A stretch of 64,000 nt of DNA from Francisellaceae bacterium UBA6186 (GTDB taxonomy: Bacteria > Pseudomonadota > Gammaproteobacteria > UBA6186 > Azoamicaceae). The translations under genes and the position numbers were made by a program. The notes below the pieces were generated by a model. That model was not told the origin of the DNA. It saw nothing but the letters and a program-made list of their open reading frames with translations, and made no database searches. This document shows, piece after piece, positions 44,507 through 57,151 of this stretch. Positions within the stretch are counted from its first letter, which is position 1, and the number at the start of each line of letters is the position of its first letter. The stretch spans positions 892 through 64,891 of the forward strand of contig DITK01000053.1 in the NCBI GenBank assembly GCA_002422785.1. The letters run 5' to 3'.

Positions 44507-45883
44507 ATGATGTTAAATATTCCAAATAAAGATTTTAACAACATGCAACCTTTGCATAAAGAACAAAAAGAAGCAATAGCATTATTATCTATAGGTACAT
44601 TTTTAGAACACTTCGATTTATTGTTATATATTCATATGATACCTATATTAAATGAAGTATTTTTCCCAAAAATAGATCCCAAGTTTGCAACTTTATTGTC
44701 AGGATTAGTATTTTGTTCCACTTATATTTGCAGACCATTTGGAGCTCTTATTTTTGGGTATTTGGGCGATAATTTTGGTCGCAAAATTCCTGTGGTTATA
44801 ACAACTTTTATAATGGCATTATCGTGTATTACTATTGCCAATCTTAAATCTTATGCTGAAATAGGTATTGCGGCAACTTGGATTGTAACTATGTGTAGAC
44901 TTGGGCAGGGTATATCTTCCCTCGGAGAAATAGTTGGTGCTGAAATTTATCTTACGGAAAGTATTAAGCCGCCTCAACAATATTTTGCAGTTTCTTTAAT
45001 GGCTTTTTCCGCAGCAAGTGGGTGTGCTGCGGCTCTTGGTATAGCCTCTTTGGTTACGTCGTTTGGCTTTAATTGGCGTATGGGATTTTGGTTTGGTGCT
45101 TGTATTGCTCTAGTAGGGGTTATTGCTAGAACAACACTAAAAGAAACAAAAGATTTTGCTGATGCCAAATTTAGAATAAAAAATCAATTAGAAAAAAATA
45201 ATATTTCAATAAATATCATAAAAAACAATCCCGTAGTTAAAGAAAAAATAAATAAAACCATAATTTTAGCTTACTCTTTAATACACTGCGGATGGCCTTT
45301 ATGCTTTTATTTAGGCTACATACATTGTGCTAGTATATTAAAAAATTCTTTTGGGTATACTTCTGAACAAGTAATTCATCATAATTTTATGTTATCAATA
45401 GTGCAGTTATTTGGATTTTTCTTTTTAAGAATATATTTAAGCCGTAAAATGGAACCATTAAAGATCCTTAAAATAATTTTGTCAATTTTTTCTGGATTTA
45501 TATTGTTTTTACCATATCTATTAAATAATTGCAGCAATCCTATGTTTTTGTTTATAATTCAATCATTTATAATAATTTTTGCTATCGACATGGCCCCTGG
45601 GACGTCAATTTTTTATTCTTACTTTCCAATATTTAAACGCTTTACTTATGCTGGACTAGCATTTGGTATATCTAGAGCGATAATAAATGTAGCAATTACT
45701 TTCGGTTGTATCTTTTTTACCGAAAAATGGGGATATTACGCACTCATGATAGTTATAATTCCAATTCTAATCGGCTACACATTTGCAATATATTATTTTG
45801 ATGATTTAAATAAGGCAATCGAAAATTATCATAAGAAAAACAATAATATTGTTCCTCTAACAAATTTAACTGAAGCTGGATAG
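44507..45883 (+). CDS. MFS transporter, metabolite:H+ symporter (ProP-like) family
   Basis: GTFLEHFDLLLY (family pattern ..EWYDF.lY), GYLGDNFGRK, about 12 TM segments. Confidence 0.7.
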   Translation: MMLNIPNKDFNNMQPLHKEQKEAIALLSIGTFLEHFDLLLYIHMIPILNEVFFPKIDPKFATLLSGLVFCSTYICRPFGALIFGYLGDNFGRKIPVVITTFIMALSCITIANLKSYAEIGIAATWIVTMCRLGQGISSLGEIVGAEIYLTESIKPPQQYFAVSLMAFSAASGCAAALGIASLVTSFGFNWRMGFWFGACIALVGVIARTTLKETKDFADAKFRIKNQLEKNNISINIIKNNPVVKEKINKTIILAYSLIHCGWPLCFYLGYIHCASILKNSFGYTSEQVIHHNFMLSIVQLFGFFFLRIYLSRKMEPLKILKIILSIFSGFILFLPYLLNNCSNPMFLFIIQSFIIIFAIDMAPGTSIFYSYFPIFKRFTYAGLAFGISRAIINVAITFGCIFFTEKWGYYALMIVIIPILIGYTFAIYYFDDLNKAIENYHKKNNNIVPLTNLTEAG

Positions 45884-46496
45884 AAAAACAAAGACGACTT
45901 AACATATTTTCTATGTCTTTTAATTGACAGTAAGCCGCAACAGTTAAAAAACTTTTTAAAGTTTCTAATACGGTATGTTTAATTTTATCTATAGATTTAA
46001 CATTAATAGTATGCAAATTATGTAATCTATCGAACAACTTTATAATTAATCCATCTTTTTTTTGCTCTGCGTATAATTGTTCCAGTATTTCTGTAGATGT
46101 AATTTTTTTACCAAACCTTATTCTGGTTAAATCGTTAACCTTACTGGCAATCTCTGGATTAAAAATTAAACCGATCATATCCGACGTAAGCTCAGTATCT
46201 TCGATAGTATCGTGTAATATGCTAACAACCATAGCTTCTGTGCTAAATAAATAATTAGAAACAAGATAAGCTACTTCTAGTGGGTGAGAATAATATGGTT
46301 CACCAGATATTCTTTTTTGAGATCCATGATATTTTTTAGCATAATAGATTGCTTTCTTTACCTCTGTAAGATTTACTTGGTCGTTAATGCAGTTATTTTT
46401 ATTTAAAAATATAATTTTTGTTATTAATCTATTTGCATAATAACAACATTCAAATTTAGATTCCCAACAATTTAGATCATGCATATCAATCACCAA
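45753..46496 (-). CDS. Stand-alone HD-domain protein of the RelA/SpoT hydrolase type (small alarmone hydrolase-like)
   Basis: YAKKYHGSQKRISGEPYYSHPLEVAYLV...SILHDTIEDT...VNDLTRI matches the (p)ppGpp hydrolase HD pattern (H.gQ.R.sGePY..HP..VA...LHD..EDT). No synthetase domain. The 3' end overlaps the MFS gene by 131 nt. Confidence 0.65.
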   Translation of the reverse strand: MVIDMHDLNCWESKFECCYYANRLITKIIFLNKNNCINDQVNLTEVKKAIYYAKKYHGSQKRISGEPYYSHPLEVAYLVSNYLFSTEAMVVSILHDTIEDTELTSDMIGLIFNPEIASKVNDLTRIRFGKKITSTEILEQLYAEQKKDGLIIKLFDRLHNLHTINVKSIDKIKHTVLETLKSFLTVAAYCQLKDIENMLSRLCFSIQLQLNLLEEQYYCFSYDNFRLPYLNHQNNILQMCSRLELEL

Positions 46497-46552
46497 CGGA
46501 ATGTTTTACTCTATTGTAAAAAAAACTTTGTTATCATATTCTATAGTATCTT

Positions 46553-47290
46553 ATGAATATTATAAAAATAAATAATTTTAATATTATGTGTGGCCACGAA
46601 AGAGCGATGAGAGAGCTGTACGCTTCTATATTTGATGAAAAAATTTATGATTTTTCAACTGCCAATCCAACACCAAATATAATAGATGCCGGTAGTAATA
46701 TAGGCATCGCAACCTTGTTTTTCAAAAACAAATATCCCGGCGCAAAAATTTTATGTTTCGAGCCAGATCCATATAATTTTCCAGTTTTACAAAAAAATAT
46801 AATTCTTAATAATTTAAATAATGTAACGACAATTGAAGCGGCTTTAGCTAAAAATACTGGATTTACATCATTTTACGGGGAAATAGATAGTTGTGCTGAC
46901 ACTAGGGGTAATTCTATTAGTAAACTTTGGGGCCAGCAAAGAACTACTACAAAAACGGCAACCGTTAAAGCAGTGCAATTATCTTCTTATATTAATCATG
47001 AAATTGATTTGCTAAAAATGGATATTGAAGGTGCGGAACAACAAGTTATAGAAGATATAACTAAAAAACTATTTTTAATAAAAACTTTAATTATAGAAGT
47101 ACATGAAGCACAAAAAGTTTATTTTGATAATAATTTACAAACTATTTGTAATATTTTACAAAATAATAATTTCAATATAACCATAGAACCTTCTGATTAT
47201 TTGCAAAACCCAACTAAAAATACCATTGAGAAGTGGGTAGAAAAAGTAAAACCCAAATTAACCGTAATTAAAGCTATCAAAATATACTAA
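46553..47290 (+). CDS. FkbM-family SAM-dependent methyltransferase
   Basis: IIDAGSNIGIATLFF...KILCFEPDPYNFPVLQKNI..NNLNNV (iDvGAn.G....f...v.afEP.p..f..L..N) and LLKMDIEGAE. Confidence 0.7.
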   Translation: MNIIKINNFNIMCGHERAMRELYASIFDEKIYDFSTANPTPNIIDAGSNIGIATLFFKNKYPGAKILCFEPDPYNFPVLQKNIILNNLNNVTTIEAALAKNTGFTSFYGEIDSCADTRGNSISKLWGQQRTTTKTATVKAVQLSSYINHEIDLLKMDIEGAEQQVIEDITKKLFLIKTLIIEVHEAQKVYFDNNLQTICNILQNNNFNITIEPSDYLQNPTKNTIEKWVEKVKPKLTVIKAIKIY

Positions 47291-47311
47291 TCAAAGTTTA
47301 TAACATCTTGG

Positions 47312-47339
47312 TTGACTAATAAAAAATATTTAGTATAGT
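47312..47339 (+). promoter_or_regulatory. Candidate sigma70 promoter upstream of the GHMP-kinase gene
   Basis: TTGACT (47312-47317), 16-nt spacer, TATAGT (47334-47339). GGAG lies about 8 nt upstream of ATG 47375. Confidence 0.4.
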
Positions 47340-47374
47340 GTGCACAATTGGATTGTTTTCTAATGGAGTAGTAT

Positions 47375-48250
47375 ATGGGCACATTTGGTTTTTCGTATGG
47401 GGCGTTTGGAGAATTATTACAAGGAGTATTACCAAATGATAGGCATTTTTTAGTTACTTTACCTATTAATATAAAATCTAAGGCTTACTTTAATCATCAG
47501 CCTAGCAAAAAGTTTATTGTTTATCCTGATTGTAAAGAAAAAATAAAAATTTTTATTAATTTATTTTGTAATTATTATGGTATTTCTTCTGGTGGGTATT
47601 TATCTATAGATAGCGAAATCCCAATCGGCAAAGGTTTGTCTAGCTCTACAGCAGATTTAATTGCAGCTTTCCGTGCTTTATCCAAAGCATTTAACATTAA
47701 TTATTCTCCCGAATGTGTAGAAAAATTAATGCGTCAAATTGAACCTTCTGACGGATTATTATACGATGGCGTTGTTGCTTATTATCATAAAGAAGTTTCT
47801 TTGTTGCAAAAATTTAATTATTATCCTGATTTAATTATTCTTGGTGTAGACGAAGGAGGTAAGGTTGATACCATAGAATACAATCGAGTTAAACAAAATC
47901 CATCTATAGAAGAAAAAAATGAATTTAAACAATTATTATCTCAATTTATTCAAGCAATAACAAAAAAAGATTTAAAAACTATTGGCAGTATAGCTACTCG
48001 TAGTACCGAATTAAACCAAAAATATAACTATAAACCATCGTTTAATAATATATTAGAAATTAATTATGCAATTAATGGTTTAGGCTTAATATGTGCTCAT
48101 AGCGGTACCTATGTTGGAATTTTATTAAATAAATTAGATATAGATTTAAATGCGAAAATCAATTATTGTCAGCAAGTATGTAGTAAATTAAATAAAAAAA
48201 TGGAATTATTTCATACCGTAGAAGAAGTAAGTTATGCAGCAATGTGTTAA
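47375..48250 (+). CDS. GHMP-family kinase, PduX (L-threonine kinase)-like
   Basis: N-terminus GAFGELLQG... (PduX-type G.cGE..QG). GHMP motif II PIGKGLSSSTADLIA. Confidence 0.7.
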   Translation: MGTFGFSYGAFGELLQGVLPNDRHFLVTLPINIKSKAYFNHQPSKKFIVYPDCKEKIKIFINLFCNYYGISSGGYLSIDSEIPIGKGLSSSTADLIAAFRALSKAFNINYSPECVEKLMRQIEPSDGLLYDGVVAYYHKEVSLLQKFNYYPDLIILGVDEGGKVDTIEYNRVKQNPSIEEKNEFKQLLSQFIQAITKKDLKTIGSIATRSTELNQKYNYKPSFNNILEINYAINGLGLICAHSGTYVGILLNKLDIDLNAKINYCQQVCSKLNKKMELFHTVEEVSYAAMC

Positions 48251-48353
48251 ATATTTAGCAAAGAAACTATCTGAATCAGAGACTTTCTGGTTAAAAAAAT
48301 TTGAGATGAAATTTGGTAATTATAGAATTTATAATGATATAAGGAATAAAAGT

Positions 48354-49328
48354 ATGAAAGGGATATATTTTTTCTGTTGCGACCCCAACAAAGATCCTGT
48401 TGCATCAGGAATATTTAATCAAGTTATTAACATGTATAATTTGCAAGAAACCACACATATTTTTGATAATCAGCCGGTATTAAAATATGTGGACTTAAAA
48501 GGTAATGAATTTTTGTTTGCCAAAACAGAGGAGGTATTAAGCCATAATTATATAAAATATTTATCACAATTAGAACAATTGAATGATAAATATGATTTTG
48601 CTGGTATTGTAAATTGGCACGAAGGCAAAAACGCTCCAAATCAAATTTTAACTGTGCATACTAATAGCGATGTTGCTAGTGGCAATTTTAGTACAGCTAA
48701 TCCATGGTTGAATAGAAATATCATTCAAGCTATTGAGAATAATAGGTTGTTAGCCGGGCTAAAAGAATTTTCAACTAAAACAGAGGCTACTCATTGGTCC
48801 GGAGTTACTTATCAACAGCCTGCAGAATTAATACCACAATTTACTGTACCTTTGGTTGATATAGAAATAGGTAGCTTACCAGATAGTTGGTCTCATCCTA
48901 TTGCTGCTGAAATTATTGCAACATCTTTAACTCAAGTGTTTGATAAAATTGATCAAGAAGAGGTTATGCCAATTTTGTATATTGGTGGAGAACATTTTGA
49001 TCAAGATCTTACCAATATTGCTATTAATGTGAATTTCCCATTTGCTTTTTGTCACCATTTACCTAATCAATGGTTTAAAGATTATGCCGCCAATCAAGAG
49101 GTGGGGTTTAAATATTTAACCAAATGTAAAGATAGTATTATAGGAGATCTGCGAGCTATATTTTATCATGACGGTATGAGCGGTCCGTTAAAAACTATGG
49201 TAAAGACATTTGCTGAGCAACATAATATACCAGTATTTAAGCATAAAGCATTAAGAGACCCTGATAAATTATTAAAAGAATTACTGAGCAGATCTGTGTC
49301 TGGGAGTCGTCCCAGGCCTCGTATATGA
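48354..49328 (+). CDS. Archaeal-type D-aminoacyl-tRNA deacylase (DtdA/DTD2)-like domain protein (track ORF starts at 48234)
   Basis: NWHEGKNAP..ILTVHTNSD, EATHWSG and VDIEIGSLPDSW resemble DTD2 motifs (ltvH.tGN, EaTHHGP, vEIGS...W) as I recall them. AGGAA lies upstream of ATG 48354. Confidence 0.45.
   Translation: MKGIYFFCCDPNKDPVASGIFNQVINMYNLQETTHIFDNQPVLKYVDLKGNEFLFAKTEEVLSHNYIKYLSQLEQLNDKYDFAGIVNWHEGKNAPNQILTVHTNSDVASGNFSTANPWLNRNIIQAIENNRLLAGLKEFSTKTEATHWSGVTYQQPAELIPQFTVPLVDIEIGSLPDSWSHPIAAEIIATSLTQVFDKIDQEEVMPILYIGGEHFDQDLTNIAINVNFPFAFCHHLPNQWFKDYAANQEVGFKYLTKCKDSIIGDLRAIFYHDGMSGPLKTMVKTFAEQHNIPVFKHKALRDPDKLLKELLSRSVSGSRPRPRI
49300..49315 (+). other. GC-rich hairpin at the 3' end of the DtdA-like ORF
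   Basis: CTGGGA-gtcg-TCCCAG is a perfect 6-bp stem in otherwise AT-rich DNA. It lies 13 nt before the stop and 23 nt before the next start codon. Confidence 0.4.
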
Positions 49329-49337
49329 ATAGCATAA

Positions 49338-50114
49338 ATGAAAATTTTAATTTTATGCTCAGACGGGCCACATAATAAATATTTAACTTATAGGATAAAT
49401 AAAGAGTTTCCAAATGTTATTACTATAGTAGAGATTTCTAATTTTAAAAAAAAGCGTTTGCTTCTTAAGCATAAATATAAAGATTATTTATATAATCTTT
49501 ATCATGATGTTAGAAGAAATTTAATAGGCCATAATAAGTATCGAGAAGATTTTTTTATTTCTAAAATACATGAACAAGGATGGAATAGAGACAACAAATA
49601 CCATATAGTCGATTGGGTAAATTCTGAACATGTAAGACAAATACTTTGCAATATTAATCCTGATATAACTATTGTTATGGGAACTTCGATAATTAAGCCT
49701 GATATATTAGATTTATTGGGTGCAAATGTAATAAATATTCATGGTGGGTATTTGCCTTATTATAAAGGAAATCATTGTTGTTTTTTTGCATTTTATAATA
49801 ATGAATTCGATAAGATTGGATCTACTATTCATTTTGTTAATAAATTTATAGATCAAGGTGATATCATAGATGTTGTTGTACCGGAAATCACAATCAATGA
49901 CAATGCAGAAACTTTGTATTGTAAGGCTGAATTAGCGGCGATAGAAAAACTTATTGTGTATATAAAAAATTATCAACTTGGTATAGATTTTCCTCGAATT
50001 CCGCAAAAAAATGTAGGAAAAATATATTATACTAGAGATCGTAAGATATACCACGAAATAATGTATTTCTTTAAAAGAAAAGGTTTGTTTAAATATTTAC
50101 AAAATATCGAATAA
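49338..50114 (+). CDS. Formyltransferase (Formyl_trans_N-type, single domain)
   Basis: INIHGGYLPYYKGNHCCFFAF (N.H.s.LP.yRG) and IDQGDII (D.G.i). Lacks the Fmt C-terminal tRNA-binding domain. Confidence 0.65.
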   Translation: MKILILCSDGPHNKYLTYRINKEFPNVITIVEISNFKKKRLLLKHKYKDYLYNLYHDVRRNLIGHNKYREDFFISKIHEQGWNRDNKYHIVDWVNSEHVRQILCNINPDITIVMGTSIIKPDILDLLGANVINIHGGYLPYYKGNHCCFFAFYNNEFDKIGSTIHFVNKFIDQGDIIDVVVPEITINDNAETLYCKAELAAIEKLIVYIKNYQLGIDFPRIPQKNVGKIYYTRDRKIYHEIMYFFKRKGLFKYLQNIE

Positions 50115-50130
50115 ATTAATTGCATAGCTG

Positions 50131-50994
50131 TCAACCTGGTTTTGTAGCAAAATAGGAATTGATATAAAGTCCAGAAATAATTAAGCAGGTTGCTACGATT
50201 TTCCACCAATCTAGGGTTTCATCTAATAGTAAAATTGAGCTAACCATGCCAAATATAGGCACTAACAAACAAAAAGGTGCTATGGTTGAAACCGGATATT
50301 TACTTAATAATATATTCCAAATATAAAATCCTAAAAAAGTCGCAATATAAGCAATATAAACAATAGCTAACATGGATATATAGTTATGTTGATAAAAACT
50401 ATTTATTATTTGTTCTGTTCCTTCAAAAATTATTGACATCAGCAATAGCAATGGCCAGGCAAATAATCCACCCCAGACAACTAAACCTATAAAATTACTA
50501 GTATTAAATTTTTTCGACATAATGCTGCCTGTTCCCCAAGCGGCGGCCGAAGTTAAGATTAGGACAAAACCAATTAAGGAAACATCTCCGCTTAAATTCA
50601 TACCAATTAAAATAATACCAAAAAAAGCAATTATGGAACCAATAATTTGCTGAATATTTATTGTTTCTTTTAAGAATATTATAGCAAGAAATATACTGAA
50701 AAATACTTGGACTTGAAATAACAATGAGGCAATACCTGCGGTTACCCCCATATTAATGCCTAAAAATAATAGTGCAAATTGTAATGCAAATGCAGTTATG
50801 CCATAAACTGCAATTAATTTGATAGGTACAGCTGGTGGTTTAATAAAGAAAATTGCTGGCATACTAACCAAAAAAAATCTTATAAAAGAAAACAGTAATG
50901 GTGGAATAAATTTAAGGCCAAATTTGATGACTACAAAATTAAATCCCCAAATAGCTGCTAATAAGATACTCATTATTAAATGTTGTATTTTCAT
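50131..50994 (-). CDS. DMT-superfamily transporter (two EamA domains)
   Basis: Ten predicted TM segments in two repeats. AAIWGFNFVVIK and AAAWGTGSIMSK are EamA-type motifs. Confidence 0.8.
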   Translation of the reverse strand: MKIQHLIMSILLAAIWGFNFVVIKFGLKFIPPLLFSFIRFFLVSMPAIFFIKPPAVPIKLIAVYGITAFALQFALLFLGINMGVTAGIASLLFQVQVFFSIFLAIIFLKETINIQQIIGSIIAFFGIILIGMNLSGDVSLIGFVLILTSAAAWGTGSIMSKKFNTSNFIGLVVWGGLFAWPLLLLMSIIFEGTEQIINSFYQHNYISMLAIVYIAYIATFLGFYIWNILLSKYPVSTIAPFCLLVPIFGMVSSILLLDETLDWWKIVATCLIISGLYINSYFATKPG

Positions 50995-51121
50995 AATTGC
51001 AATCCTTTATATTTATGTAATAAACTAATTTACAATCCTCAAATTAAATTTTTATGCAAAGTAAAAAAATTTGTGATTTAATATGCACCAAATGTTGTAT
51101 CAGCAGTATAAGGATATATGA

Positions 51122-52195
51122 ATGAATAGCCAAGCTATAGACTATACAAAATATTTAGATTTTAATTATTTATTTGCAACTTTTTCAGACTCAATTCTTT
51201 TACCTAAAATTATCCATCTTAATAACAATCTTTATGCTGCTGTATTTTCTATAATGAAATTATTGCCAGCCAAGTACATTATCTCTTCTGCTGTTAATAG
51301 AGGAGAGATTAAAGAAGGTTATACTATAGTAGATACTTCTAGTGGTACCTTTGCTTTAGGTATCGGGATTATTTGTGCAGAGCTTGGTTTTAGATTTAAG
51401 ATTTTTGGGGATCCGGCTATTGATCCCGTTTTAATTCAAAGACTAGAAGATTTAGGCGGCAGTATACATATAAGTACTAACCCTAAAAACCCAGGTGCTT
51501 ATCAGAAATTACGATTAGAAGCACTAAATACTTTTATTTCACAAAATACACTAAGTTACTGGATGAGGCAATACGATAATTTAGATAATTATAAATCTTA
51601 TGCAATTGTTGGAGAACTAATACTAAAAACTTTAGGTTCAATAGTTAATATTGTCGGTACTGTAGGTTCTGGCGGATCTACTGCTGGCATAATTAAGGCT
51701 ATTAGATTAAAAAATATTGATGCTAAATTAATTGGAGTTGATACGTTTAATAGTGTTTTATTTGGTCAGCCTGATGGTAAAAGAATATTAAGGGGACTTG
51801 GCAACTCTATTATGCCGAAAAATCTAAATCATAGTTGTTATGATGAAATTCATTGGGTGGCAGCAAACGATGCTTATTATTACACCAAATGGTTATTTAA
51901 AAACAAGTCCATTTTTTGCGGGCCAACTAGTGGTGCAGCATATCAAGTTGCTAATTATTTAGCAAAAAAAAATCCACAAGAAAAATATATATTTATTGCC
52001 CCAGATGAAGGTTATCGTTATCTTACTACAGTTTATAATGATATTTGGCTGAAGCAGCAAGAATTTTATAATACCAATATTACGGTAGAGCCAAGTTTAG
52101 TTGAGTCACCATTATATGCAAACAGTCCTTGGACATCTATTAATTGGAGCAGAAGAACTTATCAACAAGTATTAGGTAAAGAATTAAATGCATAG
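51122..52195 (+). CDS. Fold-type II PLP-dependent enzyme (cysteine synthase/CBS/SbnA-like)
   Basis: Candidate PLP-Lys in FSIMK. TSSGTFALGIG occupies the TSGNTG-loop position. Gly-rich phosphate loop GTVGSGGSTAGI. Confidence 0.65.
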   Translation: MNSQAIDYTKYLDFNYLFATFSDSILLPKIIHLNNNLYAAVFSIMKLLPAKYIISSAVNRGEIKEGYTIVDTSSGTFALGIGIICAELGFRFKIFGDPAIDPVLIQRLEDLGGSIHISTNPKNPGAYQKLRLEALNTFISQNTLSYWMRQYDNLDNYKSYAIVGELILKTLGSIVNIVGTVGSGGSTAGIIKAIRLKNIDAKLIGVDTFNSVLFGQPDGKRILRGLGNSIMPKNLNHSCYDEIHWVAANDAYYYTKWLFKNKSIFCGPTSGAAYQVANYLAKKNPQEKYIFIAPDEGYRYLTTVYNDIWLKQQEFYNTNITVEPSLVESPLYANSPWTSINWSRRTYQQVLGKELNA

Positions 52196-54878
52196 TAACT
52201 TTAAACAAAAAAACATTGCTTTTATAGAAAGCAATACTACTGGAACAGGAAGAAAATTTTTATTGGCAGCCAAAGATCATGGTCTTACACCAATTTTTAT
52301 TACCAGTAACCCTGGTAAATATAGCTTTTTAGCAGAAGAATTAATACAGCCGATTGTTTTAAATACTAATTCCAATCAAGATGTCTATCAATATTTAAAA
52401 AATATTAGCAATTTGCAAGCAATTTTTTCTACATCAGAATATTATATAGGATCGGCCTCTAGCTTAGCTAGGGATTTGGGGCTGTTATATAATAGCCCAG
52501 AGGCTATAAATCTTTGCAGAAATAAATATTTATTGGCAGGAAAATTAAGACAATATAATATAAATTGTCCTAAAACCATAAAAATTGATTCCGCCGAGCA
52601 AATAAATAGTATAGAAAATAATTTTTGTTTTCCTGTTGTAGTAAAGCCAGTCAAAGGATCTGGTAGTGTTGGGGTTAAATTATGCTTTAATAAACAAGAA
52701 GTTTTTGCACACGCAAAATTATTATTTAATGATGATAATTTAGAATCTCGTTGTGTGGTTATCCAAGAATATATTGCAGGAGAAGAATATTCGGTTGAAA
52801 CGCTAAGTTTTAACCAACAAATTAATATCATAGGAATAACGAAAAAATATTTAGGAGAGCCGCCTTTTTTCTTGGAAGTTGGCCACGATTTTCCTGCACA
52901 ATTATCCAAAGATCTTACAAAAAAAATAGAAGAATTAGTTTCAAATAGTTGCCACAAGTTAGGCTTGTTATGTGGCCCCGCTCATACTGAAATAAAAATT
53001 AAAAACGATATTCCTTATATTATAGAAATTAATCCTAGGCTTGCCGGAGGCATGATTCCAGAAATTATTAATCAGGCTACTGGTATTGATTTAATAACAC
53101 AAACTATAAATTTATTAATTGGAGAAAAAGTTAATTTAACTAAAAAAAATCAACAATTTTCAGCTATTCGTTTTATAGTGCCAAAGAATAATGGCACCAT
53201 TAAATCTATTAAATTAAACCATGACAAGCACAAATATCAATTAGTAGATTTTAAAATTAATAAACATATAAATGATGTTGTGGTTTTACGAGGAGACTTT
53301 AGAGATAGATTAGGGCATATTATTGTTAAAGCAGATACTTTGTATGCCTGTCAACAATTAGCCGAAAGATCTATCGGATCTGTATTATTAGAAATAGAAC
53401 CCAATCAAATTATAACAGAGCAAAATATCAACACTGGCAGATTAAAAGATGTGTTACTGCCAGAAATTCAAGAACTGATTAATAAAAACAATATTGTTGA
53501 TGATACTATTAAAGAATTAGAGATTTTAGCTGATATTGATGAAGCTCATATTATGATGTTACTTATAACTAATAACATTGATAGTAATAAAGCCAAGATG
53601 TTATTACAAGAAATAACAACTCTTAAAACTGACAACTTTGATCCTGTAAAAAATAATAATGCTCCTAGGGGTATATATTTATTGTATGAGAATTATTTGA
53701 TTCAAAAATTGGGTATTAATGTTGCTGGGGATGTGCATATAGCAAGATCTAGGAATGATATCAACGCTACCAAATTTAAATTGAATTTACGTGAGCGATT
53801 TATACACATTTACCAAAAAGTTTGGCAATTAAGATCCATATTAGTAAATTTATCGAAATCACATGTAAAAACATCTATACCAATTTATAGTCAGTATCAA
53901 ACAGCTTTACCAGGAACCTTGGGACATTATCTGCTGGGGATAGAAGCTGGTTTAACTAGAGAACAATCAGCATTACAAGCTATATATACTGATTTGGAAA
54001 TATCTCCTCTAGGGGCAGGAGCTGGAGGTGGAACTTCTTTTGCTATAAATCCAGAAATTACCGCAAAATTTTTAGGTTTTAGCTCTTGTGCCAGCAATTC
54101 TCTTGATGCCAGTGCTAGCCGCGATGTGTCACTTAGGATGTTATCTATATTATGTAGTTGCTCTATGTTATTAAGTAGGTTTGTTGAAGATTTACAATTA
54201 TGGTCGACTAATGAATTTAAATTGATTGAATTTCCTGATTATCTTTGTGGTGGTTCTTCTATGATGCCACAAAAAAAGAATCCATATTTATTAGAAAAAA
54301 TTAAAGGCATGTTATTATCTATGCCTGCAAATTATACTACTTGTTTATTAATCATGTATAAAGTACCCTTTGGCAATTCTTATGAAATCAGTACCGAATC
54401 ATTAAAACCTATAAACAAAGCATATGATGACTTTATTATAATTATTAATTTATTATCTATTATTATTAAAAACATTAATATTAAACATGAACATATTAAA
54501 AAAAATCAATTGGAAAATTTAACTACTGCGACTTATATAACAGATCTTCTGGTTAGGAATAAATACTGTAGCTTTAGGGAAGCTCACCATAAAATTGGAT
54601 CGATAATAAGAGATGCTTTAGATGCTGGCATAGATCCTCATGCGGCTATTTATGCCTTTTGCGATCCGATTATTAATAAATTAGATTTAGATCCTTTAAA
54701 TGTAGCCTTACAAATTGAATATGGTGGTGGCCCTGGGTTTAATTCCACTAGTAATCAATATTATCGAGCAATCGATAGATTGAATAAACACGGCGTATGG
54801 TTGACTAATAAAAAAAGGGAATTAGCTAATTGTTATTTATACAGAAAGAATAAAATTAAAGAAATTATTGCAGAATAA
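52188..54878 (+). CDS. Fusion protein: N-terminal ATP-grasp ligase domain plus C-terminal argininosuccinate-lyase-like (fumarase/aspartase superfamily) domain
   Basis: ATP-grasp: FPVVVKPVKGSGSVGVKLC, VIQEYIAGEEYSVE, IIEINPRLAGG. Lyase: HIARSRNDINAT, TALPGTLGHYLL, and the superfamily signature GSSMMPQKKNP at 54252-54284. Confidence 0.8.
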   Translation: MHSNFKQKNIAFIESNTTGTGRKFLLAAKDHGLTPIFITSNPGKYSFLAEELIQPIVLNTNSNQDVYQYLKNISNLQAIFSTSEYYIGSASSLARDLGLLYNSPEAINLCRNKYLLAGKLRQYNINCPKTIKIDSAEQINSIENNFCFPVVVKPVKGSGSVGVKLCFNKQEVFAHAKLLFNDDNLESRCVVIQEYIAGEEYSVETLSFNQQINIIGITKKYLGEPPFFLEVGHDFPAQLSKDLTKKIEELVSNSCHKLGLLCGPAHTEIKIKNDIPYIIEINPRLAGGMIPEIINQATGIDLITQTINLLIGEKVNLTKKNQQFSAIRFIVPKNNGTIKSIKLNHDKHKYQLVDFKINKHINDVVVLRGDFRDRLGHIIVKADTLYACQQLAERSIGSVLLEIEPNQIITEQNINTGRLKDVLLPEIQELINKNNIVDDTIKELEILADIDEAHIMMLLITNNIDSNKAKMLLQEITTLKTDNFDPVKNNNAPRGIYLLYENYLIQKLGINVAGDVHIARSRNDINATKFKLNLRERFIHIYQKVWQLRSILVNLSKSHVKTSIPIYSQYQTALPGTLGHYLLGIEAGLTREQSALQAIYTDLEISPLGAGAGGGTSFAINPEITAKFLGFSSCASNSLDASASRDVSLRMLSILCSCSMLLSRFVEDLQLWSTNEFKLIEFPDYLCGGSSMMPQKKNPYLLEKIKGMLLSMPANYTTCLLIMYKVPFGNSYEISTESLKPINKAYDDFIIIINLLSIIIKNINIKHEHIKKNQLENLTTATYITDLLVRNKYCSFREAHHKIGSIIRDALDAGIDPHAAIYAFCDPIINKLDLDPLNVALQIEYGGGPGFNSTSNQYYRAIDRLNKHGVWLTNKKRELANCYLYRKNKIKEIIAE

Positions 54879-54885
54879 TTTTATA

Positions 54886-56574
54886 TTAGTCTGTTGCTAT
54901 TTTAATAGCTTTACCTGAAAAACCAATTCCTATAGCACAAATATTAATAATTTTCCTAGATTGCAGCTCTGTAGTATATTTAGATTGTTTAATTTGCATT
55001 AATGCTGTCTGTGCAGCATGCTCTAATTTTGCTGGATCATTGATAACTTTAAATTCCATAACAATTCCAAGCTGCTTAGGATCTTTAGGAATAATTAACA
55101 AATCATAACGCCCATCGCCAGATTCTCTATTAGATCTAATTTCATGAGTGTCTTTCAACCCTGCCAAGATCCCTAACATTAATCCTTGATAAAATATTTC
55201 TTGTGTAGTTTTGCTAGTATCATGGTAACTTACCATCTCTGCTATAATATTTTGTAAATTTAGCTCAAATACTGCTACTTGCCCAGTAGTTAATGCGACT
55301 AATAATTCTTGATACCAAATTATTCCTCGACTACCAGATAACCATTCTATAAATATTTGTTTATATAAAAATTCTACTTCTTTGTTTGGGATCGCTAATT
55401 CACACAAATTACCGTATTCAGTAAAATTAGAAGATATTACTTTAAGATATCCTGACATTAAAAATAAACTCCAAATACCTGATCTATTTTTTTGCAAATC
55501 TAAAAATACTATGTGTTCATTAACTACTTCTGTAATGGCCTCCCCTGTAATTAATTTAGCAATTTTGTCTTGAGTATTTAATTCGGAAGTGAGCAATAGA
55601 TCTCTAATTAAATCATTACTGCTAGTATTAATCCAATATGGCTCTATTTTTCCTCTTTTTTTAATAAATTTAATAATAGACCACGGATTATAAATTGTTG
55701 TTCCACCAAAATTATAACCATTATACCATTCTTTGGTTTGGCTAGTGCTATTAGGCAATTTAGCCGTAATCAATAAATCACTAACCTCTGTTTCAGTAAA
55801 CCCAAAATAATCACAATAATTTTGATCTAACACCGAGTAAATTTCTACGTTGCTAAGGCCTGAGAATAAGCTCTCTTTTGATACTCTTAAAATTCCAGTT
55901 AAAATTGCTCTTTTAAAAAATCCATTGTCTTTTAATCCGCTACTAAGTAAATTCCTCATAAATGAGATTAATTCTTCATAGTAATTATGTGAGTATGATT
56001 CCTGAATTGGGGTGTCGTACTCATCAATTAATATAATAGCTGGCTGATTAGTTACTTTGTTAATAAATTTAGTTAATAATTTAATGCTTTCATCCCAACA
56101 AACTGGATCAGCTTTTTTTTCTAAAATCTTTTTAAACAAATCCCTCTCTTCTGGATCTAATTTTTCGCTATGTAATAAAAATCTATATTCTGAGTAAACA
56201 TTGGCTATTTGTACTTTGATATGTTCATAACAGGAATCAAAAGTTTTATACTTGGCGTCTTTTAGGGTAATAAAAATTACTGGGTATTGCCCCTGTTCTT
56301 GCATGCAAATCGTATCAGCAGCAATTTTTAGTTCATTAAACAAATCTTTAGTTAATTTGCCATTTACAGTGTTAGCAAAAAAATGCTGTAACATCGATAG
56401 ATTCAAAGTTTTACCAAAACGTCTTGGACGAGTTAAAACAATTACTGGTGTGCTATCACCTATAATTTCTTTGATTAACAAGGACTTATCAACATATAAA
56501 TATCCTTTGTTAGTAAGAGGGTTTTTATATGTAACTAAAGAGCTAAAATCACTAACACCTACGGGTAAATGCAT
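54886..56574 (-). CDS. AAA-ATPase-like domain / PD-(D/E)XK nuclease (DUF1703-type) protein
   Basis: N-terminus LPVGVSDFSSLV...YVDKSLLIKEII...VLTRPRRFGKTLNLSMLQHFF. C-terminus ESGDGRYDLLIIPKD...GIVMEFKV (E..GR.D...-..E.K nuclease core). Confidence 0.8.
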   Translation of the reverse strand: MHLPVGVSDFSSLVTYKNPLTNKGYLYVDKSLLIKEIIGDSTPVIVLTRPRRFGKTLNLSMLQHFFANTVNGKLTKDLFNELKIAADTICMQEQGQYPVIFITLKDAKYKTFDSCYEHIKVQIANVYSEYRFLLHSEKLDPEERDLFKKILEKKADPVCWDESIKLLTKFINKVTNQPAIILIDEYDTPIQESYSHNYYEELISFMRNLLSSGLKDNGFFKRAILTGILRVSKESLFSGLSNVEIYSVLDQNYCDYFGFTETEVSDLLITAKLPNSTSQTKEWYNGYNFGGTTIYNPWSIIKFIKKRGKIEPYWINTSSNDLIRDLLLTSELNTQDKIAKLITGEAITEVVNEHIVFLDLQKNRSGIWSLFLMSGYLKVISSNFTEYGNLCELAIPNKEVEFLYKQIFIEWLSGSRGIIWYQELLVALTTGQVAVFELNLQNIIAEMVSYHDTSKTTQEIFYQGLMLGILAGLKDTHEIRSNRESGDGRYDLLIIPKDPKQLGIVMEFKVINDPAKLEHAAQTALMQIKQSKYTTELQSRKIINICAIGIGFSGKAIKIATD

Positions 56575-56581
56575 AATTGGC

Positions 56582-56875
56582 CTAAATTTTATTGTTTATA
56601 ATACAAGCATATTTATGCAAAACACTAGCAATTAAGGTTTGATACGGCAAACCTTCGTAAACTGCCTTCTCTTTGATCTTTTCTAGATCTATTTTCGACA
56701 ACCTAATATTGATCCTAGCTTCTTTCTTAATATAACGACTAGCTGCCTTTTGAGCCAACTCTTTTTCTTTAGCTACATCAGGAATACTGATCGAATGTTT
56801 ATCATTTAGATTGTCTTCTAGATTTTTTTCATAAGAATCTAGCTTGTTTACTACAGTCTTCTTACGAACGCTCAT
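56582..56875 (-). CDS. Ribbon-helix-helix antitoxin, BrnA/CopG family
   Basis: LDSYEKNLE...KKEARINIRLSKIDLEKIKEKAVYEGLPYQTLIASVLHKYA matches the BrnA-type pattern (syE...kkd.rInIRls..DL..ik.kA.eeGiPYQTLisS.lHKY). GGAGGG RBS upstream. Confidence 0.6.
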   Translation of the reverse strand: MSVRKKTVVNKLDSYEKNLEDNLNDKHSISIPDVAKEKELAQKAASRYIKKEARINIRLSKIDLEKIKEKAVYEGLPYQTLIASVLHKYACIINNKI

Positions 56876-57151
56876 ACTCCACCCTCCATTAGCTAAATTT
56901 AGCCTATTGTGTGCCTTTTGTCAACCAAAGAATCTAGTGGGACTTGAGGTAACGTAAACAACTTAATTAACTGGATGAAATAATAGCAGATTTGTATACA
57001 GCCTATGATACAGTTGGTTTAAGCCAGGAGTTATTAAGTCAGGATACACTGTTATTGGCTGATTGTTTAATTTGCCGAAAAGCAATAGCTTCTGGGAAAA
57101 AAATTTATGAAGGCAAAGTTAATAATCCTCGAAAAATAGTAACATTAAAAA

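What the first reader, a model, noticed from the sequence alone, without database searches (positions are those of the whole stretch)
46553..54878. Orphan seven-gene cluster for a small amino-acid-derived metabolite, with no NRPS/PKS
Seen in sequence:
- Six same-strand genes in this order: FkbM methyltransferase, PduX-like GHMP kinase, DtdA-like protein, formyltransferase, fold-type-II PLP enzyme, ATP-grasp-lyase fusion.
- Junctions are tight. Gap 49328->49338 is 9 nt, and the PLP gene and the fusion gene overlap at 52188-52195.
- The run is interrupted only by an opposite-strand EamA/DMT exporter (50131-50994).
- A good TTGACT-16-TATAGT promoter candidate lies at 47312-47339.

Established knowledge: every one of these families is a small-molecule tailoring or ligation family. 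None belongs together in a core pathway. There is no glycosyltransferase or nucleotide-sugar gene that would make this an LPS or capsule locus.

Inference, a coherent chemical route:
1. The kinase activates a hydroxy-amino acid as its O-phosphoester.
2. The PLP enzyme performs beta/gamma-replacement.
3. The ATP-grasp domain ligates an amino acid (Asp).
4. The fused lyase expels fumarate.
5. N-formylation and methylation follow.
6. The EamA protein exports the product.

I cannot match this gene set to any characterised pathway from memory. The region sits in an accessory context: a TA remnant, a PD-(D/E)XK protein and a PPTase are nearby.
Basis: partly seen in the sequence, partly recalled or inferred. 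Interest (0 to 1): 0.82.

Follow-up and report, generated by a model that had tools for sequence, protein, structure and literature searches.

The report
Diaminobutyrate operon with tRNA-deacylase-like companion
The cluster is real, and its core is the recently characterised DabABC route from threonine to the unusual amino acid 2,3-diaminobutyrate; the new part is a conserved, unstudied pair (an archaeal/plant-type tRNA-deacylase-like enzyme and a formyltransferase), often with an exporter, that accompanies such diamino-acid genes in several bacterial phyla.

Summary
All seven ORFs exist at the stated coordinates. The cluster is not fully orphan. The GHMP kinase, SbnA-family PLP enzyme and ATP-grasp/argininosuccinate-lyase fusion form a DabABC-type module. 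That pathway was characterised in 2024: L-Thr is phosphorylated, the PLP enzyme replaces phosphate with L-Asp, and the lyase expels fumarate to give (2S,3R)-2,3-diaminobutyrate.

The new part is the rest. The DTD2-fold "DtdA-like" protein and a distinct formyltransferase subfamily, often with an EamA exporter, sit beside diamino-acid modules in:
- Gammaproteobacteria, Shimia (Alphaproteobacteria) and Prosthecochloris (Chlorobiota)
- soil NRPS clusters
- one SbnA/SbnB-type cluster

Gene orders are shuffled. Three proteins fuse the DabC-type lyase to the DTD2-like domain. ThrRS-like, IleRS-like or PheRS-editing-like genes lie next to it in some loci. I found no paper describing this.

Most likely the locus makes and exports free or N-formylated diaminobutyrate. 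The companion genes either protect translation or tailor the product. FkbM is found only in this species. Verdict: a new variant of a known kind, moderately high interest.

The parts
46553..47290 (+). FkbM-family methyltransferase. Its membership in the cluster is uncertain.
   Evidence: TIGR01444 scores 93.5 bits (cut-off 37.7) and PF05050 gives E 1.7e-15. It is present only in same-species contigs L088-L090 and absent from every other Dab/DtdA/Fmt locus. An 84-nt gap separates it from the kinase gene.
47312..47339 (+). Sigma-70-like motif TTGACT-16-TATAGT in the FkbM-kinase gap.
   Evidence: The motif is present, but promoter-like hits in the region are below the shuffle expectation (42 against 61.6). 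This is a candidate only.
47375..48250 (+). GHMP kinase, DabA-like. Putative L-threonine (or L-serine) kinase that makes the O-phospho amino acid.
   Evidence: PF00288 gives E 2.6e-12. It is 39-40% identical to the kinases of the Burkholderia and Parachlamydia kinase-PLP-fusion loci. The motifs GELLQG, GKGLSSS(T/S)AD, EPSDG and AHSGT are conserved across kinases of Dab-type loci.
48234..49328 (+). DTD2-fold ('DtdA-like') zinc-hydrolase-family protein. It belongs to a distinct bacterial clade of PF04414.
   Evidence: PF04414 scores 92.8 bits (cut-off 33.6). The NCBIfam DTD2 equivalogs are not reached (55 against 272). The AlphaFold model has pLDDT 88.4. Foldseek gives TM 0.84 and 0.83 to PH0006 and AF0625. 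The family has 29 invariant columns, including C48, H129, E184, H187, E211, H254, H274, H312 and H337.
49338..50114 (+). Stand-alone formyltransferase (Formyl_trans_N only) from a small uncharacterised subfamily.
   Evidence: PF00551 gives E 1.6e-13. There is no Formyl_trans_C domain. The subfamily comprises 88 clusters, none named by function. The closest solved structures are only distant, at E 1e-9 to 1e-6: PseJ, ArnA, sugar N-formyltransferases, the LgrA F domain and Fmt. The motif NIHGGYLPYYKG...IDQGD is read directly from the sequence.
50131..50994 (-). EamA/DMT transporter, closest to the O-acetylserine/cysteine exporter EamA. Putative product exporter.
   Evidence: PF00892 gives E 1.7e-34 and NF008523 gives E 1.2e-63, below its cut-off. 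EamA genes lie next to the module in the gammaproteobacterial relatives, in Prosthecochloris and beside the stand-alone DtdA-like gene of C. difficile.
51122..52195 (+). Fold-type-II PLP beta-replacement enzyme, DabB-like and of the SbnA family.
   Evidence: TIGR03945 gives E 4.3e-58 (196.8 bits, below the 349.95 cut-off). SbnA structure 5d87 matches at E 1.2e-30, and the Schiff-base lysine region aligns (IMKLLPAKYII against SMKDRPAKYII). It is 46% identical to the Burkholderia and Parachlamydia partners.
52188..53417 (+). ATP-grasp (L-amino-acid-ligase-like) N-terminal half of the DabC-like fusion.
   Evidence: ATP-grasp_3, ATP-grasp_4 and LAL_C2 hits. L-amino-acid ligase 3vot matches at E 1.7e-21. 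The canonical catalytic residues are invariant in 13 homologs: K153, E200, E204, K220 and E280/N282/R284. Its role is unknown in the published pathway.
53436..54878 (+). Argininosuccinate-lyase-like C-terminal half of the DabC-like fusion. It eliminates fumarate.
   Evidence: Lyase_1 gives E 1.3e-38 and ArgH structures match at E 1e-46. The SS loop GGSSMMPQKKNP is conserved. The ArgH Thr-His dyad is Ser-Gln throughout the fused clade, including Burkholderia. The protein is 37% identical and collinear with B. pseudomallei P0229.
43707..56970 (.). Strain-variable ~13.3-kb block that carries the cluster together with the PPTase, MFS, HD_4, AAA-ATPase/PD-(D/E)XK and CopG-like genes.
   Evidence: blastn against the same-species contigs L088-L090 gives 98.6-98.9% identity inside the block. 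The flanks differ left of 43707 and, in L090, right of 56970.

Best explanation
The locus is an NRPS-independent 2,3-diamino-acid operon.

**Core.** Homology to a characterised system supports this part; it has not been shown for this organism.
1. The GHMP kinase phosphorylates L-threonine (or L-serine).
2. The SbnA-family PLP enzyme eliminates phosphate and adds the alpha-amino group of L-aspartate to C3.
3. The lyase half of the fusion expels fumarate. This leaves (2S,3R)-2,3-diaminobutyrate, or 2,3-diaminopropionate if serine is the substrate.

The ATP-grasp half looks catalytically intact, but its reaction is unknown.

**Companion genes (inferred).** The formyltransferase N-formylates the diamino acid, and the EamA protein exports the free or formylated product. 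The DTD2-fold enzyme hydrolyses tRNA esters of this threonine/serine look-alike, possibly after N-formylation, so that the producer's own translation is protected. The FkbM methyltransferase is an add-on found only in this species.

**Separate probabilities.**
- Diamino-acid core: about 0.85.
- The DTD2-like/formyltransferase pair is functionally tied to the diamino acid: about 0.85.
- The specific 'formylate, deacylate and export as self-protection' reading: about 0.35-0.4.

The single confidence figure given here is for the statement as a whole.
For: **Core.**
- Domain calls, plus the full-length NF002563 hit above its cut-off.
- The published DabABC mechanism (PMC10906522).
- 37-46% identity to the kinase, PLP enzyme and fusion of Burkholderia and Parachlamydia loci.
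- The catalytic lysine, SS loop and ATP-grasp residues are conserved.

**Linkage of the companion genes.**
- The same families co-occur in at least eight different gene orders. These include gammaproteobacterial MAGs, Prosthecochloris, Shimia, where IS elements flank the block, and metagenomic loci L096, L097, L103, L123, L130 and L159.
- They also follow an SbnA/SbnB-type module in L104.
- Three lyase-DTD2-like fusion proteins exist.

**tRNA link.**
- DTD2 fold with TM 0.84, and shared His/Glu core residues.
- A ThrRS-like gene directly downstream in L144.
- An IleRS-like gene inside the L086 cluster.
- A B3_4 PheRS-editing-like neighbour in L129.
- Stand-alone DtdA-like plus EamA pairs in the C. 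difficile group.

**Formylation.**
- N-formyl-Dpr starter units in keramamide/calyxamide-type assembly lines (PMC12858407).
- An F-A-T protein next to the Parachlamydia Dab genes.
Against: - No product has been observed.
- I could not fetch the sequences of the characterised B. thailandensis DabABC (GenBank BK065153). Homology to it is therefore indirect.
- The PLP enzyme and the DTD2-like protein both score below the NCBIfam equivalog cut-offs.
- DabABC works heterologously without any DTD2-like protein or this formyltransferase. Four Dab-type loci lack both: L001, L002, L175 and L176.
- A lyase-DTD2-like fusion and the family's acidic pI of 4.9-6.5 fit a small-molecule enzyme better than a tRNA-binding one.
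- Canonical DTD2 acts on D-aminoacyl-tRNA and N-ethyl-D-aminoacyl-tRNA, not on N-acetyl- or L-aminoacyl-tRNA (PMC7857688).
- About 63 of 81 DtdA-like loci show no Dab or Fmt genes within the available flanks.
Confidence: 0.4

Rival explanations
1. The DTD2-like protein and the formyltransferase are true biosynthetic enzymes acting on the free metabolite. One version: formyl-Dab is cyclodehydrated to a 5-methyl-2-imidazoline-4-carboxylate, an ectoine-like cyclic amidine. Another version: formyl serves as a transient protecting group that the zinc hydrolase later removes. The product is a tailored small molecule, not plain Dab.
For: - Lyase-DTD2-like fusions imply metabolic coupling.
- The operon position lyase-DtdA-Fmt is fixed in many loci.
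- The family has an acidic pI.
- Prosthecochloris and Shimia are marine organisms, where compatible solutes are common. This point rests on my own knowledge.
- N-formyl-1,2-diamines cyclise readily to imidazolines, which is general chemistry.
Against: - No imidazoline amino acid of this kind is known to me as a natural product.
- DTD2-family chemistry is ester hydrolysis.
- Close DtdA-like homologs occur with no Fmt or Dab genes nearby: 59% identity in L091, and the C. difficile copy.
- aaRS-type neighbours are unexplained under this reading.
Confidence: 0.25
2. The block is a precursor-supply sub-cluster. It feeds Dab to an NRPS or other assembly enzyme encoded elsewhere in the genome, as in the monobactam, friulimicin and pacidamycin clusters.
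For: - Every characterised Dab operon serves an NRPS.
- The identical six-gene block abuts NRPS genes in L096 and L097, and PKS/NRPS genes in L104 and L122.
- An Sfp-type PPTase lies in the same strain-variable block.
Against: - The 64-kb window has no NRPS.
- None appears in the 10-kb flanks of the gammaproteobacterial relatives, Prosthecochloris or Shimia.
- In Shimia, IS elements bracket the block and no synthetase is present.
- A dedicated amino-acid-type exporter is part of the set.
Confidence: 0.15
3. The ATP-grasp domain ligates Asp to a carboxylate or amine of the intermediate. The fused lyase then removes fumarate, in PurC/PurB or ArgG/ArgH-style nitrogen transfer. Formylation and methylation follow as obligatory steps.
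For: - The ATP-grasp half is fused to the lyase, and its catalytic residues are invariant.
- The PurC/PurB and ArgG/ArgH logic is well-established biochemistry.
Against: - In vitro, DabB alone couples O-phospho-Thr with L-Asp to give ACPAA.
- Feeding ACPAA to cells that express DabC gives the Dab-containing product.
- FkbM is not conserved with the cluster.
Confidence: 0.08
4. A tRNA-dependent pathway. Dab is charged onto a tRNA, N-formylated by the Fmt-like enzyme, then either transferred onward or released by the DTD2-like hydrolase.
For: - The DTD2/PTH fold acts on aminoacyl-tRNA esters.
- aaRS paralogs lie next to the genes in L144 and L086.
- In Kitasatospora, the same Fmt subfamily sits beside two FemAB-like genes and a class-II aaRS paralog.
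Against: - The formyltransferase lacks the tRNA-binding C-terminal domain of Met-tRNA formyltransferase.
- The window has no aaRS or FemAB gene near the cluster.
- Formylating and then hydrolysing a tRNA ester gives no obvious benefit as a biosynthetic route.
Confidence: 0.08
5. Chance neighbourhood. The DtdA-like gene is a housekeeping D-aminoacyl-tRNA deacylase, and the formyltransferase is unrelated to the Dab genes.
For: Most DtdA-like genes (about 63 of 81 loci) have no Dab or Fmt genes nearby. One close homolog sits among the housekeeping genes dnaB, alr and mraZ.
Against: - The genes co-localise in at least four bacterial classes or phyla, in at least eight gene orders.
- Translational overlap with the kinase gene (17 nt), plus a 9-nt gap to the formyltransferase gene.
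- Lyase-DTD2-like gene fusions exist.
Confidence: 0.03

Closest known systems
DabABC operon of Burkholderia thailandensis E264 ((2S,3R)-2,3-diaminobutyrate biosynthesis; Li et al., iScience 2024, PMC10906522)
   Same: The same three enzyme types are present: a GHMP L-Thr kinase, a cysteine-synthase/SbnA-like PLP enzyme that uses L-Asp, and a two-domain ATP-grasp/argininosuccinate-lyase protein. The PLP and fusion genes are translationally coupled. Identity to Burkholderia-group homologs is 37-46%.
   Different: No NRPS client is in sight. The kinase is separated from the PLP gene by three extra genes (DTD2-like, formyltransferase, EamA). Identity to the characterised proteins themselves was not measured. 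The product is unverified.
SbnA/SbnB (also SulG/H, VioB/K, CmnB/K) L-2,3-diaminopropionate pathway
   Same: It uses a homologous PLP enzyme acting on an O-phospho amino acid. The closest solved structure is SbnA. The DTD2-like/Fmt pair also follows an SbnA/SbnB-type module in L104.
   Different: The window has no SbnB-type NAD-dependent ornithine-cyclodeaminase-family partner. The nitrogen donor is released by a lyase (fumarate), not by oxidation to 2-oxoglutarate. The score is below the SbnA equivalog cut-off.
DTD2 (archaeal/plant D-aminoacyl-tRNA deacylase; PH0006, AF0625, GEK1)
   Same: It belongs to the same Pfam family and has the same fold (TM 0.83-0.84). It shares the His/Glu core expected for the two-zinc site.
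   Different: It is only 19-24% identical and 30-60 residues longer, with extra invariant residues (D146, D209, H312, H337). It is bacterial, whereas DTD2 is described as exclusive to Archaea and Streptophyta. It is linked, and sometimes fused, to diamino-acid biosynthetic enzymes. Its activity is untested.
ATP-grasp (L-amino-acid-ligase) antimetabolite clusters: bacilysin BacD, dapdiamide DdaF, tabtoxin, rhizocticin
   Same: These are NRPS-independent. They have an LAL-type ATP-grasp ligase (DdaF E 3e-18; BacD and BL00235 hits), a non-proteinogenic amino-acid warhead and a dedicated exporter.
   Different: Here the ATP-grasp is fused to the lyase. It is also present in NRPS-serving Dab operons, so it need not make a dipeptide. 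No dipeptide product is known.
N-formylating loading modules (LgrA F domain; Fmt-A(Dpr) starters of keramamide/calyxamide-type assembly lines)
   Same: They use a formyl-THF-type formyltransferase associated with a 2,3-diamino acid. The Parachlamydia Dab locus has an F-A-T protein.
   Different: The window enzyme is free-standing and only distantly related (E about 1e-6 to LgrA). No carrier protein is nearby.
aaRS-paralog self-resistance in antibiotic clusters (ThrRS in borrelidin and obafluorin clusters, IleRS in the mupirocin cluster; own knowledge, not tested here)
   Same: ThrRS-like and IleRS-like genes are embedded in two of the related loci.
   Different: The window itself has no aaRS paralog. 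Whether those copies are resistance genes is unknown.

Membership tests
DabABC-type 2,3-diaminobutyrate module | GHMP-family L-threonine kinase encoded with the other two genes | tested here: inconclusive
   The GHMP N-terminal domain is present, and the protein is 39-40% identical to kinases of Burkholderia and Parachlamydia Dab-type loci. GHMP motifs are conserved. The Thr-kinase-specific motif IV of PduX/BluE/DabA could not be checked because no reference sequences were available. No PduX-type profile hit was found.
DabABC-type 2,3-diaminobutyrate module | Fold-type-II (cysteine-synthase/SbnA-like) PLP enzyme with a Schiff-base lysine | tested here: met
   PALP gives E 6.7e-30 and the SbnA family gives E 4.3e-58. 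The lysine aligns with the SbnA 'SMKDR' lysine.
DabABC-type 2,3-diaminobutyrate module | Two-domain protein with an N-terminal ATP-grasp and a C-terminal argininosuccinate-lyase-like domain (or the two halves as separate genes) | tested here: met
   NF002563 scores 891 bits against a 625-bit cut-off, matching across the full length. It aligns collinearly at 37% identity with B. pseudomallei-group proteins. The SS loop is conserved.
DabABC-type 2,3-diaminobutyrate module | Sequence orthology to the characterised B. thailandensis E264 DabA, DabB and DabC (GenBank BK065153) | not testable with these tools
   The record could not be fetched. Cluster look-ups returned B. pseudomallei, B. mayonis, B. 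oklahomensis and B. ubonensis members but no E264 entry.
DabABC-type 2,3-diaminobutyrate module | Product is (2S,3R)-Dab, with L-Asp as the amine donor | not testable with these tools
   This needs enzymology or metabolomics.
SbnA/SbnB L-Dap pathway | NAD-dependent SbnB (ornithine cyclodeaminase family) partner next to the PLP enzyme | tested here: not met
   There is no OCD_Mu_crystall gene in the cluster or its flanks. The PLP enzyme scores below the TIGR03945 cut-off (196.8 against 349.95).
DTD2 (PF04414) D-aminoacyl-tRNA deacylase | Pfam family membership and the DTD2/PTH-like fold | tested here: met
   PF04414 scores 92.8 bits against 33.6. Foldseek gives E 1e-22 and TM 0.84 to 2gfq and 0.83 to 1yqe, on a model with pLDDT 88.
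DTD2 (PF04414) D-aminoacyl-tRNA deacylase | Equivalog-level similarity to the archaeal enzyme | tested here: not met
   The best NCBIfam DTD2 equivalog scores 55 bits against a 272-bit cut-off. In the exhaustive search the bacterial clade scores above 200 bits with its own profile, and canonical-length DTD2s score only 60-125 bits.
DTD2 (PF04414) D-aminoacyl-tRNA deacylase | Conserved metal-binding or catalytic core (two essential zinc ions) | tested here: inconclusive
   H129, H142, E184, T186, H187, E211, H254 and H274 align with identical residues of PH0006, and most of them are invariant in the bacterial family. The published ligand list was not available in the papers I read.
DTD2 (PF04414) D-aminoacyl-tRNA deacylase | Hydrolysis of D-aminoacyl-tRNA or N-ethyl-D-aminoacyl-tRNA | not testable with these tools
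   This needs a biochemical assay.
Formyl-THF-dependent formyltransferases (PF00551) | Catalytic N-terminal domain with the Asn-His...Asp motif | tested here: met
   PF00551 scores 51.3 bits against 26.1. 'NIHGGYLPYYKG' and 'IDQGD' are read directly from the sequence and align with PseJ.
Methionyl-tRNA formyltransferase (Fmt) | C-terminal tRNA-binding domain (Formyl_trans_C) | tested here: not met
   Only Formyl_trans_N was found, and the protein is 258 aa long. TIGR00460 scores 35 bits against a 201.5-bit cut-off.
NRPS/PKS biosynthetic gene cluster | Adenylation/condensation or ketosynthase megasynthase in the locus | tested here: not met
   The largest ORFs in the window are LptD, the fusion protein and PBP1A. 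The only discrete type-II FAS-like genes lie downstream, outside the strain-conserved block of L090.

The most novel reading that the evidence does not exclude
The bacterial DTD2-like clade is a dedicated trans-editing and immunity factor for 2,3-diamino acids that the cell itself makes or encounters. These acids are beta-amino look-alikes of Thr and Ser, and their N-methyl or N-formyl forms are isosteric with Ile. The factor would work with a formyltransferase that blocks the amino acid or its tRNA ester, and with an EamA pump. The NRPS-less operon would then be a producer of an aminoacyl-tRNA-synthetase-directed amino-acid antimetabolite in an environmental, possibly amoeba-associated, gammaproteobacterium. 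This would be the first tRNA-proofreading enzyme recruited as natural-product self-resistance. It would also overturn the view that DTD2 is confined to Archaea and plants.
Probability: 0.3. Interest if true: 0.82.

Novelty: new variant of a known kind. Interest (0 to 1): 0.62.

Why it matters
**Re-annotation.** Genes annotated as 'argininosuccinate lyase', 'cysteine synthase' and 'D-aminoacyl-tRNA deacylase' in many MAGs and in cultured Prosthecochloris and Shimia are re-assigned. They form a diaminobutyrate module with a conserved companion set.

**DTD2 distribution.** DTD2-fold enzymes are not confined to Archaea and plants. One bacterial clade is genetically, and sometimes physically, coupled to the biosynthesis of non-proteinogenic diamino acids. 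That makes a new question directly testable: do producers of amino-acid look-alikes need dedicated tRNA proofreading, or has the fold been recruited for small-molecule chemistry?

**The ATP-grasp half.** It is unexplained yet catalytically intact in every Dab module, which marks an open problem in a pathway of pharmaceutical interest (monobactams, friulimicin, uridyl-peptide antibiotics).

**Genome mining.** NRPS-free Dab operons with an exporter suggest free or N-formyl diaminobutyrate as a secreted metabolite. Standard genome-mining rules would miss this class.

Tried and rejected
1. **Genome-collection scan with the fusion protein.** The pattern from the lyase SS loop pulled in about 590 ordinary ArgH genes. 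Only L001 and L002 were full-length relatives, and neither carried the companion genes. The DtdA-like protein proved the better probe.
2. **Direct comparison with the characterised E264 DabABC.** The paper gives only GenBank BK065153. Cluster look-ups returned other Burkholderia species, so orthology stays indirect.
3. **'PduX-like' label.** No profile or PDB support beyond generic GHMP hits.
4. **Promoter claim.** The motif is present but is not enriched over shuffles. The terminator-like hits lie inside genes.
5. **RNA elements.** No Rfam family and no tRNA in the window.
6. **Downstream FAS-like/ACP/acyltransferase set and the PPTase as part of the pathway (an N-acyl-Dab lipid).** Rejected as unsupported. 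Relatives lack this linkage, and strain L090 diverges before the lipid genes.
7. **Thr-catabolism (Kbl/Tdh-like) neighbours of stand-alone DtdA-like genes as independent evidence.** They come from one syntenic clade, so I gave them little weight.
8. **Mobile-island signatures.** No tRNA or convincing terminal repeats at 43707 and 56970. The only notable repeat is an exact 18-mer inside the block.
9. **Literature.** Searches for a Dab/Dap link to a tRNA deacylase, formyltransferase or aaRS resistance found nothing relevant.

Full report
**Observation**

The seven ORFs are at exactly the coordinates given, with the stated junctions. There is a 9-nt gap at 49328/49338 and an 8-nt overlap at 52188-52195. 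The kinase and DtdA-like genes also overlap by 17 nt.

Profile searches confirm each family:
- FkbM methyltransferase
- GHMP kinase
- PF04414 'tRNA_deacylase'
- Formyl_trans_N
- EamA
- a PALP enzyme of the SbnA family
- an 896-aa ATP-grasp plus Lyase_1 fusion

The fusion matches the full-length NCBIfam model NF002563 at 891 bits, above its 625-bit cut-off.

Three caveats apply. No profile supports the label 'PduX-like'. The promoter motif at 47312-47339 exists, but such motifs are fewer here than in shuffled sequence (42 against 61.6). The window has no modular NRPS or PKS. The flanks are ordinary Gram-negative chromosome: LptD, SurA, PBP1A, an MSHA-type pilus operon and a separate type-II FAS-like set.

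**The core is a known pathway**

A literature search found Li et al. 2024 (PMC10906522). In Burkholderia thailandensis:
1. DabA, a GHMP L-Thr kinase, makes O-phospho-L-threonine.
2. DabB, a cysteine-synthase/SbnA-like PLP enzyme, replaces the phosphate with the amino group of L-Asp and no other donor. The product is ACPAA.
3. DabC, with an N-terminal ATP-grasp and a C-terminal argininosuccinate-lyase-like domain, eliminates fumarate to give (2S,3R)-2,3-diaminobutyrate.

With O-phospho-serine the same enzymes give L-Dap.

The window encodes all three protein types. The PLP and fusion genes are translationally coupled. Supporting details:
- The fusion aligns collinearly at 37% identity with the B. 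pseudomallei-group protein.
- The kinase and PLP enzyme are 39-46% identical to their partners in Burkholderia and Parachlamydia loci.
- The Schiff-base lysine aligns with that of SbnA.
- The lyase SS loop GGSSMMPQKKNP is intact.

The ArgH Thr-His dyad is Ser-Gln here. The same holds in every fused DabC-type protein examined, including Burkholderia, so it is a clade trait and not a defect.

Two points were wrong: that the genes match nothing characterised, and that the ATP-grasp domain adds Asp. I could not retrieve the E264 sequences (BK065153), so orthology to the tested proteins is indirect.

**The ATP-grasp half**

Its closest relatives are L-amino-acid ligases: BL00235, BacD and DdaF. All canonical catalytic residues are invariant in 13 homologs from fused and split versions. 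The published pathway needs no ATP at this stage and assigns the domain no role. No later paper does either. This remains an open question.

**The companion genes are conserved with diamino-acid modules**

I searched with the DtdA-like protein and read the contigs that encode its relatives. The same gene set recurs in these places:
- Three further gammaproteobacterial lineages, each with a different gene order (L081-L087).
- Prosthecochloris sp. SCSIO W1101 (Chlorobiota), as GHMP-PLP-ATP-grasp-lyase-DtdA-Fmt with a convergent EamA (L094).
- Shimia thalassica (Alphaproteobacteria), where IS elements flank the block (L178).

A metagenome scan returned 80 more DtdA-like loci. A custom HMM survey showed:
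- The complete six-function block in L096, L097, L103, L130 and L159. L123 shows the same order from the PLP gene onward and is cut at the contig end.
- Partial blocks at contig ends in L111, L112, L126, L135 and L144.
- In L096 and L097 the block abuts NRPS genes.

In L104 the Fmt-DtdA pair follows an SbnA/SbnB-type Dap module inside a PKS/NRPS cluster. The pair therefore tracks the 2,3-diamino acid itself, not one route to it and not one downstream use.

The window-type formyltransferase is a small, uncharacterised subfamily of 88 clusters. It is only remotely similar to any solved formyltransferase.

An exhaustive profile search found three proteins, each no more than 50% identical to the others, in which a DabC-type lyase and the DTD2-like domain form one polypeptide.

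FkbM occurs only in the window's own species.

Not all Dab modules carry the pair. L001, L002, L175 and L176 lack it. About 63 of 81 DtdA-like loci show no Dab or Fmt genes in the available flanks.

**What the DtdA-like protein is**

A confident model (pLDDT 88.4) superposes on the archaeal DTD2 structures PH0006 and AF0625 with TM 0.83-0.84. The next-best folds score below 0.5. Several His and Glu residues shared with PH0006 are invariant in the bacterial family. This fits the two essential zinc ions of DTD2 (PMC1807948).

The protein nevertheless fails the DTD2 equivalog cut-offs. It belongs to a separate bacterial clade of about 76 representatives at E <= 1e-30. The literature describes DTD2 as exclusive to Archaea and Streptophyta, with a PTH-like fold. 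It is reported active on D-aminoacyl-tRNA and N-ethyl-D-aminoacyl-tRNA, but not on the N-acetyl forms (PMC7857688).

**How it most likely works**

Shown by homology: Thr (or Ser) is converted to the O-phospho ester, then to the Asp adduct, then to Dab (or Dap) plus fumarate.

Inferred: the formyltransferase N-formylates the diamino acid. N-formyl-Dpr starter units are known in keramamide/calyxamide-type pathways (PMC12858407). In Parachlamydia an F-A-T protein directly precedes the Dab genes. The EamA protein, closest to the O-acetylserine/cysteine exporter, would export the product.

For the DTD2-like enzyme two readings remain.

Evidence favouring a tRNA-proofreading or self-protection role:
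- The fold and core residues.
- A ThrRS-like gene lacking the TGS domain, directly downstream in L144.
- An IleRS-like gene inside the L086 cluster.
- A free-standing PheRS-editing-like B3_4 protein next to it in another clade.
- DtdA-like plus EamA pairs with no biosynthetic genes in the C. difficile group.

Dab is the beta-amino analogue of threonine, so mischarging is chemically plausible. That last point is inference.

Evidence favouring a small-molecule role, such as hydrolysis or cyclisation of formyl-Dab:
- The lyase fusions.
- The fixed lyase-DtdA-Fmt order.
- The acidic pI of the family.

I rank the protection reading slightly higher, at about 0.35-0.4 against about 0.25. I consider the linkage of the pair to the diamino acid itself well established, at about 0.85.

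**Context**

Same-species contigs share only 43707 to about 56970 with the window. Their flanks differ. The cluster therefore lies in a ~13-kb strain-variable block that also carries a PPTase, an MFS transporter, an HD-domain protein, an AAA-ATPase/PD-(D/E)XK protein and a CopG-like remnant. The relatives' contigs encode ankyrin, RGS, CBUA0006_C and mitochondrial-carrier-like proteins. This hints at a host-associated, Legionellales-like lifestyle, but I did not establish the taxonomy.

**Verdict**

The finding is real. The 'orphan' claim is half wrong, because the core is DabABC. The rest is an undescribed, phylogenetically widespread companion module whose DTD2-fold member is unexpected in bacteria. 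I call it a new variant of a known kind, with interest 0.62.

Noticed in passing
window 47309-47326 and 54798-54815: An exact 18-nt direct repeat, TGGTTGACTAATAAAAAA, brackets the six-gene core. The second lies inside the 3' end of the fusion gene and codes for WLTNKK. My rough chance expectation in 14.6 kb is about 0.02. Its meaning is unknown.
   Followed up: partly
window 43707 and 56970 (compared with L088, L089, L090): Same-species contigs are 98.6-98.9% identical to the window only between these points. To the left they carry CorC/CNNM and Peptidase_S51 in place of the window's CitMHS transporter and M50 peptidase. L090 diverges to the right. No tRNA or terminal repeats mark the ends.
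   Followed up: partly
window 53436-54878 (lyase domain, motif 'IYSQYQTALPG'); also L081, L084, L086, L175, L176, L001, L002: All fused DabC-type lyases, and the split lyase of L002, have Ser-Gln where argininosuccinate lyases have the Thr-His dyad. The split lyases of Prosthecochloris, Shimia and L092, and two of the three lyase-DTD2 fusions, keep Thr-His; no dyad motif was found in the third (P0385). There are thus two mechanistic subtypes of the Dab lyase.
   Followed up: partly
P0371, P0385, P0395 (proteins from the exhaustive search): These ~800-aa single-chain proteins fuse a DabC-type lyase (N-terminal) to the DTD2-like domain (C-terminal).
   Followed up: partly
L144 3523-5307; L086 16767-20243; L177 15749-17161: aaRS paralogs lie next to the companion genes. 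L144 has a ThrRS lacking the TGS domain (549 bits to E. coli ThrRS residues 64-631). L086 has a 1158-aa IleRS-like protein with DUF5915. In Kitasatospora kazusensis a class-II aaRS sits beside two FemAB-like genes and the same Fmt subfamily.
   Followed up: partly
L081 6391-8995 and L083 1093-3688, compared with L082 3081-3968: In two of three near-identical contigs an inserted transposase-like gene (HTH_28/29/32) splits the GHMP kinase gene into 194-aa and 103-aa pieces. It is intact in the third. The kinase step is therefore dispensable or being lost in some strains, which might then make Dap from cellular O-phosphoserine.
   Followed up: no
L082 3961-4926; L086 15685-16704: A 321-339-aa protein with a mitochondrial-carrier repeat (PF00153, E 3.8e-10) is encoded inside the Dab/DtdA/Fmt cluster of the gammaproteobacterial relatives. 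The window has no counterpart. This is an unusual family for bacteria, otherwise known from Legionella effectors (own knowledge).
   Followed up: no
L175 (B. pseudomallei UUWS01000025.1) 1-11685: A B. pseudomallei locus combines a Dab-type kinase, PLP enzyme and fusion with an argininosuccinate-synthase-like gene, a second ASL-like lyase, a different formyltransferase subfamily, a methyltransferase, an aminotransferase and an MFS transporter. No NRPS is visible in the 11.7 kb that were read. It is probably another uncharacterised Dab-derived pathway.
   Followed up: no
window 57665-63965 (- strand): A second, type-II FAS-like gene set: PlsC-type acyltransferase, ACP, KAS, FabZ-like, FabA, FabH-like and FabD-like. 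With the Sfp-type PPTase at 43715-44443 it may make a specialised lipid. I found no evidence linking it to the Dab genes.
   Followed up: partly
window 44465-45883 (+) and 45753-46496 (-): The MFS transporter ORF and the convergent HD_4-domain ORF overlap by about 131 nt at their 3' ends. The called genes in the same-species contig L088 show the same overlap.
   Followed up: no
window 52442-52957 (-): A 171-aa ORF lies antisense inside the fusion gene. It is most likely spurious, since it was found only as a mechanical ORF and has no called counterpart in L088-L090.
   Followed up: no
L129 9183-9890 and neighbours (also L131, L147, L151, L170): In one clade from anaerobic-digester and bioreactor samples, the stand-alone DtdA-like gene is flanked by a divergent B3_4-domain protein. 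Downstream lie a Kbl-like aminotransferase and an NAD-epimerase-type (Tdh-like) gene, that is, threonine-catabolism-type enzymes.
   Followed up: partly
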